NCBI RefSeq assembly: GCF_003334385.1
Contig: NZ_QOWN01000045.1
Strand: one strand, 5' to 3'
Length of the DNA: 35,570 nucleotides
Source of the DNA: Escherichia coli
GTDB taxonomy: Bacteria > Pseudomonadota > Gammaproteobacteria > Enterobacterales > Enterobacteriaceae
This document shows positions 3,001-6,000 of the stretch, piece by piece. Positions within the stretch are counted from its first letter, which is position 1. Each line of letters begins with the position of its first letter. The position numbers are program-made.

Positions 3001-6000
3001 AGCTTTCTCCTTTTTAGGTAGTTAAGTTGTTACGAGTTGCAAGAATACAACATTAACAACTTTTATCACAACTTTTAGGTGTTGGAAAGCTAAAACATAA
3101 AGTTGTAACCTCATCAAAAAAGAGAGGGATATGTTGTGAAAACACTGGCAGAACGATTAAAGATAGGTAGAGAGAAAGCTGGCATGAGCCAAGCTCAACT
3201 AGCTGAAAAAATTGGACTTTCACAACAATCTGTAGCCAAAATAGAGAATGGCGAAACTCTACAACCGCGCAAAATTAAAGAAATTGCAAAAGTTTTAGGT
3301 GTATCACAAAAGTGGTTACAACTTGGTATTGAAGACAACGCATCCATACCTGATCTTGTTGTAAAAGAAGCAGAAAGCACCGCATTAGACCCCGATATTT
3401 TCGTAAACATTCCTGTTTTAGATGTCGAGTTATCGGCAGGTAACGGATGTCTGGCTGAAATAGTTGAATCAGCTATTGACTGGTTTCCGTTAAGAAGAGC
3501 AGATTTGAGAAAATCTGGCGTATGTGCATCTAATGCCAAGATCGTAAAAATATGGGGGAACAGTTTATTACCGGTTCTCAATAATGGAGATCTTGTTGCC
3601 GTTGATATTTCTCAAACCGTTCCTATTCGTGATGGCGATCTTTATGCCGTACGAGATGGTGTATTGCTAAGGGTTAAAATACTTATCAACTTACCTGACG
3701 GTGGCTTGATTCTTAGAAGCTTCAACAAAGATGAGTACCCAGATGAAATACTCACCTTTGAAGATAGACGAGCCAGAATTCATGTTATAGGTAGGGTATT
3801 CTGGTCATCGCGAACTTGGTAATGCATCGAAAAGCATTTCTTCAGAAATAATTTTAAGTTTTGCACCATTATCATCCCTATAAGATATAGCCTTTTCGAT
3901 CTTCCTTCCGTGACTTGAGAATTTCCAATCACGGGAGGAAAGCGTCCCAATTACTAAAAAATCCAACTTTTGAGTAATTCCACTACTGATGTTCCCACCA
4001 GCATTTTTAATCAAATTTTCAACTACGGCTCTCTTTCCTGCAACAAAAGTGCCTGTAAGACAATAGGTTTTACCCTCTAACTCTATCGAAGCCCCTACAT
4101 CAATAGGCAGCCTGGTCGCCAAACCATCCACCACCCCACTTTCCAAGTCACATCCTGTGAAGTCTACTAATGCCTTATGTAGAGTTAAACTCTCATCTTC
4201 AGTAATAACACCATCTTTAAGAATTTCCTTTACAAGTGCATAAAGTTTTTTTCCTGGGTAGTTGTTCTTCAAAGCTCCATTTTGCTCAAGCCACCAATTA
4301 AGATATCTTATTTCTTCTTGAGTTAAGCTCCGATCAGCAATTAATCCTTTACATAGTCCATTAAGTAAATGGACATCTACATCCTTGGAGTAAAAATCAA
4401 TTTCAGGGATATCAAGAATTTCCCTCTGTATTTGGAGAAGGCTATTTTTAAGGTCATCACGTTCTTCTGATGTGATTATTCCATCCGCAAGAATATCCGA
4501 CACCCGTGCTGATAGACTTTTTATAACTCCATTATTGATAATCTGCTTTGCTTCAAGTAACCATGTATCTAAGTAAAGAACCTCCTCTTCACGGACAACT
4601 CCATCTGCAATGATTCCATCAATGATGCTAATCAAGTTAGCAAATAACTTGTCCCGGTTCTGTGTGTAATTAAAAGCGTAAAGCGCGTCTTCCATACAAC
4701 CTCCTTTTTTTGATAATCCTTGCACTCCTTGGCTACTCGTTCAAACCACATAAAGTTGTTGACAACATTCAAAACCACAACTAAATTACAACTTAAAGGT
4801 GTTAAAACAACGAACAGGCAGGACGCCCACGAAGTAGCCGCCGGTGGCGTATGAATGACCGGATGATTCGTTAAATACTATGTGTAAGAGAGCGTAAATG
4901 AACCGTTATTTCACATGCTCGTTTTGTGGCGCAAACGAGCTGCAGGCAAAAAAAATCATCGCCAAAGGCGGAAAAGATGAAGTTGCTATCTGCTCTGAGT
5001 GCGTAGTCTTGTGTGTCGGGGCATTAATCAATATCAGCACAACTATTCAGTTCACACCAAATGAGAATGCGCCTTTAGATGCGCGGAAATCTGGAGGTTA
5101 AAGAACAAAATGAAAGTCCAGATTTTAAACAATAGTGGTGAAGTCGTTTGGTCATACGACATAGCCGCTCCTGTAGATCAGAGCGGCGATAGCTGGACCA
5201 ATGGGAAACATCAGATTATGGCTGGAGTTGTGTTCTCTTTACGCCGTGCTTTAGAACAGGCTGAAGTATTTCCATCAGACCCTGAATGGAAATGGCCTTT
5301 TTCTATTTGTCCAAATTCGGAGAGCACATTTCAGAAAATTGGTCAGAAAGTCGCACTCGAAGAGCATCAGCCAACTGTTTCCTGATTTTTTCAGGTAACT
5401 CGTCGGCATCGCAGAAACAACAACGCTCGATCATGTTGAAAGCCGATGCGTAGAACTGTTTCTGCTGAGTGTCGCTGAGACAGGAAAAGAGCGACGTTAC
5501 GATGATTTTATTAATTGCATTATCAAGTTCTTTTTCATCAAAAGTCATTTGATTTTCCTTTTATGTATACTGGCTTAAAAGGATACCACCGAGCCTGAAG
5601 TGGTGAAAAGACAGGCACATAACAGCTAAGTATTTTCAACCAGAGAGAATCCTTAGCGTTGTGGTGAATGCGGCTCAGCGCACGCGGGTTAAGGTTGAGG
5701 CTGACAGTCGACCTTCTGTGGATACCCACCCGTCTGGTGTGCAACCTTCGCCAGGCACCGGGAGGCACCCGGCACCACAACTTTATGCTGTGTGTAGTCC
5801 TGGCGGTACCAGTTTGTACCCTTGCTTCCGGCTGGTACCGTCCTTTTTACAAAACAGAGAAGAGCATCACCGGACGACGGGCTCATAACCCAATCCATCC
5901 GGGCGGCTGCCACCGCAGGTGTTCTTCTCTGTTTTGTGGAGAAACTAATCGGCCTTGCAGGGTCGATATGATGAGGAGCAGCAAAATGGCTAGCGAACGC

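What the first reader, a model, noticed from the sequence alone, without database searches (positions are those of the whole stretch)
3805..4695. TerB-repeat + BRCT protein in the cI-OL slot of the prophage: candidate undescribed defense or exclusion gene
The 296 aa product has four copies of a TerB-like motif (IIADGVVREEEVLYL, ILADGIITSEERDDL, LIADRSLTQEEIRYL, ILKDGVITEDESLTL) followed by a C-terminal BRCT-like domain (GKTYCLTGTF...LDFLVIGT...ISEEMLFDAL). It lies between the cI-like repressor and the left operator, the position that rexA/rexB hold in lambda, but on the opposite strand, convergent with cI. The gene is strongly AT-rich compared with the flanking prophage and host genes, as expected for a moron. 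I do not recognise this architecture as a described defense system. BRCT domains typically bind phosphorylated partners or DNA ends and TerB domains occur in stress and phage-associated loci, so an abortive-infection or superinfection-exclusion role is plausible but speculative.
Basis: partly seen in the sequence, partly recalled or inferred. Interest (0 to 1): 0.8.

Follow-up and report, generated by a model that had tools for sequence, protein, structure and literature searches.

The report
Repressor-linked BRCT protein, likely phage exclusion
A prophage gene next to the repressor encodes a nuclease-free protein with two helical repeat units and a DNA-end-binding BRCT domain; it belongs to a large, uncharacterised family that sits beside repressors in many temperate phages, and one old Vibrio member is reported to block superinfection.

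Summary
The gene is real: window 3805-4695, minus strand, 296 aa, with a strong RBS. Its protein has a proven internal duplication of two ~85-aa four-helix units, each carrying two conserved D(G)...E motifs, followed by a genuine BRCT domain of the RFC1/LigA type.

- In 79 of 79 enterobacterial viral loci the gene is convergent with, and overlaps, an orthologous cI repressor that diverges in step with it.
- In Vibrio K139, Pseudomonas D3-like phages and others, homologs lie directly downstream of unrelated HTH/S24 repressors (68 of 80 short-form loci).
- It is still accessory: one E. coli prophage lineage keeps only a deletion remnant.

Relatives fuse the same module to DEDDh exonucleases (the PADLOC candidate PDC-S48) or to a ProA/Hhe-like helicase.

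K139 Orf2 (33% identical, full length) was reported in 1999 to prevent superinfection, so this is a new member of a known but mechanistically unexplored kind.

Best reading: a lysogen-expressed exclusion protein that acts inside the cell on incoming phage DNA ends. The function is inferred, not shown.

The parts
3805..4695 (-). Coding sequence of the 296-aa helical-repeat + BRCT protein (stop included)
   Evidence: ORF list and RBS. Identical to RefSeq WP_000389078.1. PHROG 3989 full length, E 1.6e-128. AF2 model pLDDT 95.1, pTM 0.92.
4402..4674 (-). Helical unit 1 (aa 8-98): four helices with D(G)...E motifs at D31/E38 and D71/E78
   Evidence: AF2 helices 10-28, 36-50, 56-69, 76-94. Self-similarity and hhalign of unit 1 against unit 2, E 4e-26.
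4138..4398 (-). Helical unit 2 (aa 100-186): four helices with motifs at D121/E128 and D161/E168. This unit plus the BRCT domain forms the ~210-aa short form of the family.
   Evidence: Short-form homologs align to aa ~101-290.
4081..4137 (-). Conserved linker (aa 187-205, 'GVVDGLATRLP...')
   Evidence: Conservation 0.8-0.94 among 38 distinct enterobacterial sequences. G187 is kept in 82 of 96 diverse homologs.
3826..4080 (-). BRCT domain (aa 206-290) with T214-G215 and R222 almost invariant
4700..4706 (-). Ribosome-binding site AAGGAGG
   Evidence: Sequence. GGAGG is conserved in 10 of 11 aligned loci.
4716..4744 (-). Putative promoter of the gene: -35 TTGAAC (4739-4744), 17-nt spacer, TGc-AAGGAT extended -10 (4716-4724). 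Inferred, not mapped.
   Evidence: Read. TTGA.. and TG[CT]AAGGAT are conserved in loci spanning 69-100% protein identity. The consensus scan did not report it, so it is a weak promoter.
4741..4764 (.). Invariant block B containing operator-like site ACAACTTTATGTGGT (4745-4759). It lies between the back-to-back -35 elements of PL and of the gene's putative promoter.
   Evidence: Invariant in 11 loci. The same 12-mer ACATAAAGTTGT occurs at 3095-3106 in the cI/cro intergenic region.
4776..4803 (.). Invariant block A with operator-like sites overlapping the -10 of PL
   Evidence: PL-like promoter TTGACA-17-TAAATT at 4759-4787 on the + strand.
3136..3822 (+). cI-type repressor (HTH + S24-like C-terminal domain). 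It is the convergent partner, and its 3' end overlaps the gene by 18 nt.
   Evidence: phrog_4 E 1e-53 and phrog_6201 CI-like. The orthologous partner is present in 79 of 79 viral loci and diverges in step with the gene.
3047..3109 (.). cI/cro intergenic operator region sharing the operator motif with 4745-4803
   Evidence: Direct and inverted repeat families D1, D2, D3 and I3. Sequence.

Best explanation
The gene encodes a lysogen-expressed superinfection-exclusion (anti-phage) protein that acts inside the cell on incoming phage DNA. It is an E. coli/enterobacterial member of the family founded by Vibrio phage K139 Orf2.

Proposed working, with shown and inferred steps marked:
1. The gene is transcribed in the lysogen. 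In K139 and the Pseudomonas phages this is because it sits in the cI operon. Here it would come from its own weak promoter, whose -35 abuts a cI operator, a geometry like lambda OR2/PRM. Gene order and sequence conservation are shown; the regulation is inferred.
2. The C-terminal BRCT domain is of the RFC1/LigA class and keeps the T-G...R part of the phosphate pocket. It docks on 5'-phosphorylated ends or nicks of injected linear phage DNA. The integrated prophage has no such ends. This step is inferred.
3. The two tandem four-helix units, with four conserved Asp/Glu pairs, act as the adaptor or sensor part, binding a metal, ligand or partner. This step is inferred.
4. The protein has no catalytic domain. 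Exclusion would therefore come from occluding the ends (blocking cos-end ligation, circularisation or replication start) or from recruiting a host nuclease. In relatives, the same module is covalently joined to a DEDDh exonuclease or a large SF1 helicase. The fusions are shown; the mechanism is inferred.
For: Homology to a member with a phenotype:
- K139 Orf2 is 33% identical over 95% of the length with the same architecture.
- It lies in the PL lysogenic operon cI-orf2-glo-int.
- A review cites Nesper et al. 1999 for superinfection immunity by K139 Orf2. My own recollection of that abstract agrees.
- The cI-int slot of K139-like phages is a documented antiviral hotspot.

Expression context:
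- 79 of 79 enterobacterial loci pair the gene with an orthologous cI.
- 68 of 80 short-form loci, plus P0121 and phage phi1, have an HTH/S24 repressor immediately upstream on the same strand, drawn from several repressor families.
- Operator blocks and a TGn-extended -10 are invariant upstream of the gene.

Accessory nature:
- A prophage lineage with an 83%-identical cI keeps only an in-frame deletion remnant of the gene.

DNA-directed, defence-type relatives:
- The module is fused to DEDDh exonucleases, which match PADLOC candidate PDC-S48 over nearly its full length.
- It is fused to LigA-type HhH+BRCT tails.
- It is fused to a 2042-aa ProA/Hhe-like antiphage helicase, and to helicase or exonuclease proteins in AFDB.

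BRCT class:
- The best solved relatives are the RFC1 BRCT (a 5'-phosphate dsDNA binder) and LigA.
- T214, G215 and R222 are conserved in at least 92 of 96 homologs.
Against: - There are no functional data for this protein or any enterobacterial homolog.
- The K139 evidence comes from a secondary citation and my memory. The primary paper was not readable here, and its mechanism is unknown.
- The protein has no effector domain.
- The lysine of the RFC1-type phosphate pocket (K243) is kept in only 41 of 96 homologs, so 5'-phosphate binding is not assured.
- PDC-S48 is itself only a candidate system, and this protein lacks its exonuclease.
- The tight, co-diverging linkage to S24 repressors fits a regulatory role equally well.
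- The promoter and its cI dependence are read from sequence only. The consensus scan did not call it.
Confidence: 0.5

Rival explanations
1. It is an accessory regulator of the lysis-lysogeny switch. A DNA-damage or DNA-end sensor (BRCT) would tune RecA-dependent self-cleavage or operator occupancy of its cognate S24 repressor, raising or lowering prophage induction.
For: - The gene is adjacent to HTH/S24 repressors of several unrelated families in Gamma- and Epsilonproteobacterial phages.
- It diverges in step with cI in 79 of 79 loci, while the gene on its other side varies.
- cI operators abut its start.
- Weak HMM cross-hits link its D(G)...E motif to the C-terminal part of YmfL/CII-like regulators.
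Against: - Prophages with an orthologous cI persist in 24 E. coli genomes with the gene reduced to a remnant, so cI does not need it.
- The K139 homolog is cited for preventing superinfection, not for switch control.
- Fusions are to exonucleases and helicases, not to regulators.
- Physical linkage with overlapping 3' ends could alone explain the co-divergence.
Confidence: 0.2
2. It is an anti-defence decoy. As a nuclease-free copy of the targeting module of host DEDDh-exonuclease/BRCT (PDC-S48-type) or helicase defence proteins, it would compete for the same DNA ends or ligand and protect the phage's own DNA.
For: The protein matches only the C-terminal targeting part of PDC-S48 (profile 239-377 of 411) and lacks the exonuclease. 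The family is overwhelmingly phage-borne and rare on plasmids (7 of 72,556 records).
Against: Its position in the lysogenic operon, or next to cI operators, suggests expression in the lysogen rather than early in infection. The K139 phenotype is protection of the lysogen. No co-occurrence with PDC-S48 in hosts was shown.
Confidence: 0.1
3. It is a phage DNA-metabolism accessory, for example a helper that brings host LigA or clamp-loader-type factors to cos ends or nicks, as the frequent database name 'NAD-dependent DNA ligase' suggests.
For: - The BRCT domain is closest to LigA and RFC1 BRCT domains.
- Some relatives carry an added LigA-like HhH+BRCT tail.
Against: - Only the BRCT part matches LigA models, at 20-30 bits against cut-offs of 369-1051. 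There is no adenylation, OB, Zn or HhH domain.
- The gene lies in the immunity region, not in the replication or packaging modules.
- It is lost by deletion in related prophages.
Confidence: 0.08

Closest known systems
Vibrio cholerae phage K139 Orf2 (NP_536630; PHROG 3989)
   Same: Full-length homolog: 33% identity over 95% of the length, with two helical units plus a BRCT domain. It is encoded next to the cI repressor and in the lysogenic transcription unit. It is cited as preventing superinfection.
   Different: In K139 the gene is co-directional with and downstream of an unrelated cI, and is followed by glo and int. Here it is convergent with cI and has its own operator-flanked start. The host and phage type also differ (P2-like myovirus against a lambdoid prophage). 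The mechanism is unknown in both.
PADLOC candidate system PDC-S48 (DEDDh exonuclease + helical unit + BRCT) / NCBIfam PRK06195 'DNA polymerase III subunit epsilon'
   Same: Shares the C-terminal helical-unit + BRCT module (E 2.7e-7, profile positions 239-377 of 411). Family members P0186 and P0215 match PDC-S48 over nearly its full length.
   Different: The window protein has no exonuclease domain and carries a second helical unit instead. PDC-S48 is a defence-island candidate without published validation, and no paper in the library mentions it.
Lambda rexA/rexB, P22 sieB, BTP1 BstA and other repressor-adjacent prophage exclusion genes
   Same: They share the genomic logic of an accessory gene placed beside the repressor and expressed in the lysogen to act against incoming phages. 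This rests on established knowledge plus the position shown.
   Different: No sequence or domain similarity was found. The PADLOC scan returned only PDC-S48. Those systems use membrane or KilA-N-type components, whereas this is a soluble protein with a DNA-end-type binding domain.
TerB / DjlA N-terminal (TerB-like) helical domains
   Same: Each unit is helix-loop-helix with [AS]-D-G-x-h-x-x-x-E motifs, as in TerB. Foldseek finds AFDB proteins named 'TerB family tellurite resistance protein' (E 1.7e-7, TMt 0.89, 30% id) and 'DjlA N-terminal domain' (E 4.4e-7) covering both units.
GAPS2 (GapS2) single-protein antiphage system of Vibrio GMT islands
   Same: It is a small validated antiphage protein. 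Its NCBIfam model matches BRCT regions of some fused family members. It is therefore a precedent for a small BRCT-bearing defence protein without an enzyme domain.
   Different: The window protein and nearly all the stand-alone homologs tested give no hit to NF047932 even at E <= 10; only P0135 gave a non-significant one (E 0.032). The N-terminal parts are unrelated as far as tested.

Membership tests
BRCT domain (PF00533) | Match to the family HMM | tested here: met
   PF00533 i-E 5.3e-5, aa 206-290. The precomputed Pfam hit is present in most homologs.
BRCT domain (PF00533) | BRCT fold (parallel sheet flanked by helices) | tested here: met
RFC1/LigA-class DNA-binding BRCT | Conserved phosphate-pocket residues (Thr-Gly, Arg, Lys). 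The RFC1 equivalents T415, R423 and K458 are recalled from the literature. | tested here: inconclusive
   T214 92/96, G215 94/96 and R222 94/96 are conserved, but K243 only 41/96. Best sequence relatives are RFC1 (E 3e-7) and LigA. DNA binding was not testable.
TerB (PF05099) | Match to the family HMM | tested here: not met
   No TerB hit at E <= 10 for the protein. 0 of 37 diverse N-terminal domains hit at E <= 0.1.
TerB (PF05099) | Profile-profile similarity to a bona fide TerB | tested here: not met
   hhalign of A4 against a TerB sequence verified as PF05099 (E 7e-23) gives E 0.019, prob 2.5%, although the D-G...E motifs align.
TerB-like superfamily | Fold similarity to TerB-like structures | tested here: inconclusive
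K139 Orf2 family (PHROG 3989) | Full-length match to the family profile and the same domain order | tested here: met
   phrog_3989 E 1.6e-128, aa 2-295 against profile 2-295 of 296. Aligns with K139 Orf2 over 95% of its length.
K139 Orf2 family (PHROG 3989) | Encoded next to the prophage repressor | tested here: met
K139 Orf2 family (PHROG 3989) | Prevents superinfection of the lysogen | not testable with these tools
   Known only through a secondary citation for K139. No data exist for the E. coli gene.
PADLOC PDC-S48 | N-terminal DEDDh (RNase_T) exonuclease domain | tested here: not met
   The match covers only profile positions 239-377 of 411. There is no RNase_T hit. Fused relatives do have the domain.
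NAD-dependent DNA ligase LigA (the name given to many homologs) | Adenylation, OB, Zn-finger and HhH domains, and a score above the curated cut-off | tested here: not met
   Only the BRCT tail matches, at 20-30 bits against cut-offs of 369-1051.
GapS2 (NF047932) | Match to the NCBIfam model | tested here: not met
   No hit for the window protein at E <= 10.

The most novel reading that the evidence does not exclude
The helical-repeat/BRCT protein is a general 'repressor-companion' immunity factor of temperate phages across Proteobacteria. It would be a non-enzymatic sensor that recognises incoming linear phage genomes by their free 5'-phosphorylated ends or nicks and neutralises them. Its synthesis would be licensed directly by the repressor bound at OL (PRM-like activation), so that it switches off when the resident prophage is induced. 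That would make DNA topology (ends against no ends) the discrimination between self and non-self in a one-protein exclusion system.
Probability: 0.2. Interest if true: 0.75.

Novelty: new member of a known kind. Interest (0 to 1): 0.55.

Why it matters
About 1,600 clusters at 50% identity (E <= 1e-10) carry this module. It sits beside the repressor in temperate phages of Escherichia, Salmonella, Serratia, Klebsiella, Vibrio, Aeromonas, Pseudomonas and even Sulfurimonas. Yet it is labelled 'BRCT domain-containing protein', 'unknown function' or, wrongly, 'NAD-dependent DNA ligase'.

If the exclusion role reported for K139 Orf2 holds for the family, this is one of the most widespread prophage-encoded protective genes still lacking a mechanism. 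It would also be a rare case with no enzymatic or membrane effector.

It would give a function to the nuclease-fused relatives (PDC-S48) as well. The system is easy to test: one gene with its own promoter, a natural deletion allele, and clear point-mutant targets.

Tried and rejected
- The primary K139 paper (PMC93736, PMID 10217785) is not held. Only a secondary citation was found.
- Literature searches for BRCT plus phage defence, TerB plus BRCT, PDC-S48, or the protein accessions found nothing on this family.
- Membership of GapS2 was considered after hits in fused relatives and then rejected. The model hits only their extra LigA-like BRCT, not this protein.
- The 'DNA ligase' and 'DNA polymerase III epsilon' names were rejected, because only the BRCT matches.
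- Alignment A5 of the short forms was too diverse for a locus scan and was replaced by A6.
- Contigs carrying the exonuclease-fused relatives were too short to show context.
- Spurious ORFs in the GC-rich Pseudomonas loci prevented a reading of what lies between the repressor and the gene in the ~410-nt-gap loci.
- A PADLOC scan of ten neighbouring window proteins found no known defence partner.
- The compositional 'moron' argument was rejected, because cI and cro share the low GC.
- The genome-contig scan for enrichment outside prophages was not run.
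Full report
**1. The observation**

The ORF exists as described. It lies at window 3805..4695 on the minus strand and gives 296 aa from an ATG. AAGGAGG precedes the ATG by 5 nt (4700-4706). An upstream in-frame GTG at 4725 would give 306 aa. 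RefSeq annotates the identical 296-aa product (WP_000389078.1, 'BRCT domain-containing protein') in E. coli prophages integrated at tRNA-Thr next to proA.

The four motif copies are not chance. The best 20-residue self-alignments score 56 and 53, against a maximum of 30 in shuffles. A profile of aa 8-98 aligns to a profile of aa 100-186 with probability 99.7% and E 4e-26. The N-terminal two thirds is therefore a tandem duplication of an ~85-aa unit, and each unit holds two D(G)...E motifs. The Asp and Glu of all four motifs are kept in 67-96 of 96 diverse homologs.

AlphaFold2 with a 96-sequence alignment gives a confident model (pLDDT 95.1, pTM 0.92). It shows two four-helix units followed by an alpha/beta domain.

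**2. The domains**

The C-terminal domain is a BRCT:
- Pfam PF00533, E 5e-5.
- The family profile finds the RFC1 BRCT at E 3e-7, and LigA BRCTs.
- T214-G215 and R222 align with the phosphate-pocket residues of RFC1 (recalled from the literature) and are almost invariant. The pocket lysine (K243) is kept in only 41 of 96 homologs.

The TerB label is weaker:
- No Pfam TerB hit for this protein or for any of 37 diverse N-terminal domains.
- hhalign to a sequence I verified as TerB (PF05099, E 7e-23) gives E 0.019 and probability 2.5%, although the motifs line up.
- In favour, Foldseek against AFDB50 finds stand-alone proteins named 'TerB family tellurite resistance protein' (E 1.7e-7, TM 0.78/0.89, 30% identity) and 'DjlA N-terminal domain' covering both units.

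I therefore call it a divergent TerB-like helical repeat at motif and model level, not a TerB family member.

**3. The surroundings**

The gene is convergent with a cI-type repressor at 3136-3822 (phrog_4, E 1e-53) and overlaps it by 18 nt. Cro-like and YmfL/CII-like genes lie beyond the repressor.

An operator-like motif (about ACAACTTTAnGnnGT) occurs three times in the cI/cro intergenic region (3047-3109) and again at 4745-4803, just upstream of the gene. A PL-like promoter on the plus strand (TTGACA-17-TAAATT, 4759-4787) points into the early-left genes. So 'between cI and OL' is correct.

Aligning this upstream region from 11 loci spanning 58-100% protein identity shows two invariant blocks:
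- Block A (4776-4803) covers the PL -10.
- Block B (4741-4764) lies between the -35 of PL and a conserved TTGA(A/T)(C/T)-17 nt-TG[CT]AAGGAT on the gene's strand (4716-4744), in all but the most divergent locus. GGAGG and the ATG follow.

This geometry resembles lambda OR2/PRM. It suggests that the gene's weak promoter is controlled, possibly activated, by the repressor. That is inference only.

The low GC of the gene (0.36-0.41) is shared by cI and cro (0.37-0.41), so it does not mark the gene as a separate insertion.

**4. Relatives and their contexts**

The family is large:
- 2,870 representative clusters at E <= 1e-3 and 1,595 at E <= 1e-10 among 1.84 billion representatives.
- It includes a full-length form (~295 aa) and a short form (~210 aa, one unit plus BRCT).
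- It matches PHROG 3989, 'unknown function', over its whole length.

Enterobacterial relatives:
- In E. coli the gene is in 47 of 5,426 complete genomes.
- In IMG/VR, 79 of 79 informative enterobacterial loci (58-100% identity) have the gene convergent with, and overlapping, an orthologous cI.
- That cI's identity (50-99.6%) tracks the identity of the gene, while the gene on the other side varies.

More distant relatives:
- In Vibrio phage K139 the homolog Orf2 (33% identity, 95% coverage) lies in the PL lysogenic operon cI-orf2-glo-int.
- In Pseudomonas phage phi1 the short form directly follows the repressor.
- A 45%-identical metagenomic homolog follows an HTH_3 + Peptidase_S24 repressor.
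- In 68 of 80 short-form viral loci an HTH/S24 repressor ORF lies immediately upstream on the same strand. These repressors come from several repressor families.
- In Sulfurimonas phage SNW-1 the gene faces cII and is followed by a thermonuclease gene.
- The family is rare on plasmids (7 of 72,556 records).

**5. Accessory, not core**

The orthologous cI is present in 72 E. coli genomes: 47 at >= 99%, all carrying the intact gene, and 24 at 80-90%. One genome of the ~83% group was inspected (K-15KW01; most listed members share ~83.5% identity). There the promoter, operators, RBS and first ~9 codons are retained. They are fused in frame to the conserved 'TLS.RDWK.S.HGRKIEKA' stretch of the BRCT, giving a 35-aa remnant. 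The repressor module therefore persists without the gene. This argues against an essential role in immunity and for an accessory, moron-like role.

**6. Clues from fusions**

- Relatives carry the same module behind a DEDDh (RNase_T) exonuclease. These match the PADLOC candidate PDC-S48 over nearly its full length, which explains why the window protein hits only profile positions 239-377 of that model.
- Others add a LigA-like HhH+BRCT tail.
- One 2,042-aa protein joins the module to a ProA/Hhe-like antiphage SF1 helicase.
- AFDB hits include exonuclease and DEAD-box helicase proteins.

The module thus behaves as a DNA-directed targeting or sensing part of defence-type enzymes. The phage version is that part alone.

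**7. Literature**

- A review cites Nesper et al. 1999 for superinfection immunity conferred by K139 Orf2. My recollection of that abstract ('Orf2 is involved in preventing superinfection') agrees, but the paper could not be read here.
- Rousset et al. 2022 describe the cI-int interval of K139-like Vibrio prophages as a hotspot of antiviral systems.
- GAPS2 shows that a small protein whose NCBIfam model overlaps BRCT regions can protect against phages. This protein does not match that model.
- No paper in the library mentions this family's architecture, PDC-S48 or the accessions.

**8. Explanation and rivals**

Best reading (0.5): a lysogen-expressed exclusion protein that binds ends or nicks of incoming phage DNA through its BRCT. 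It would block their processing, or recruit a host nuclease through the helical units. The ends-based mechanism itself is speculative (about 0.2).

Rivals:
- A modulator of the S24-repressor switch (0.2). The strict repressor linkage favours it; the deletion allele, the K139 report and the fusion partners count against it.
- An anti-defence decoy of PDC-S48-type nucleases (0.1).
- A ligase or replication accessory (0.08).

**9. Verdict**

The gene is a new enterobacterial member of the K139 Orf2 family of repressor-linked exclusion genes. That kind has been known since 1999 but never dissected, so it is not categorically new. Its breadth, its nuclease-free design, and its conserved pairing with repressors and their operators make it a worthwhile and easily tested target. 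Interest 0.55.

Noticed in passing
L178 3715-3903 (-) (E. coli K-15KW01, NZ_CP016358.1); corresponds to window 3805-4725: A related prophage lineage (cI ~83% identical in DNA, 24 E. coli genomes; K-15KW01 inspected) keeps the operators, RBS and start of the gene. Codons ~10-250 are deleted in frame, leaving '...MDDALLITQGTLSFRDWKLSNHGRKIEKAGNNGN'. This is a natural knockout allele.
   Followed up: yes
window 2178-2834 (-): The YmfL/CII-like protein carries a C-terminal 'IEDGVVEPHEQTAINDEL' stretch resembling the D-G-h-h-x-x-x-E motif. The target protein and its K139 and Pseudomonas homologs give weak HMM cross-hits to the YmfL and CII-like models (E 1e-5 to 0.2). This may be a shared helical module between a regulator and the companion protein.
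   Followed up: partly
window 4811-4850: A GC-rich inverted repeat (GGCGGCTACTTCGTGGGCGTCCTGCC) lies just downstream of the PL-like promoter and is conserved in most related loci. It could be a nut/boxB-like or terminator element of the early-left transcript. The scan lists terminator-like hits on the minus strand at 4830-4814.
   Followed up: no
window 4898-5101 (+): The first gene after PL encodes a 67-aa ClpX C4-type zinc-finger protein (phrog_5259, unknown function). It is retained in the lineage that lost the BRCT gene.
   Followed up: no
window 5303-5548 (-): An 81-aa ORF (phrog_3311, unknown function) is oriented against the early-left operon, overlaps the end of the 5110-5385 gene and lies in an AT-rich patch. 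It is another possible moron.
   Followed up: no
window 8787-10040: A tyrosine integrase (8787-9950, +) abuts tRNA-Thr(CGU) at 9965-10040 (-). This is the prophage end and attachment site; proA/proB-type host genes follow.
   Followed up: partly
protein P0228 (2042 aa): A giant ProA/Hhe-like antiphage SF1 helicase carries the helical-unit + BRCT module at its C-terminus (aa 1852-2042).
   Followed up: partly
L004 3929-4986 (Sulfurimonas phage SNW-1): The short-form homolog sits divergent from cII, where a repressor would be expected and none is annotated. A thermonuclease gene follows it after 3 nt, so this may be a two-gene version.
   Followed up: no
L173 1469-2161; L177 1518-2021; L089 1581-2159: Exonuclease-fused and short-form relatives are each followed within 2-20 nt by a conserved-length ORF (230, 167 and 192 aa) without Pfam hits. 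These may be partner genes.
   Followed up: no
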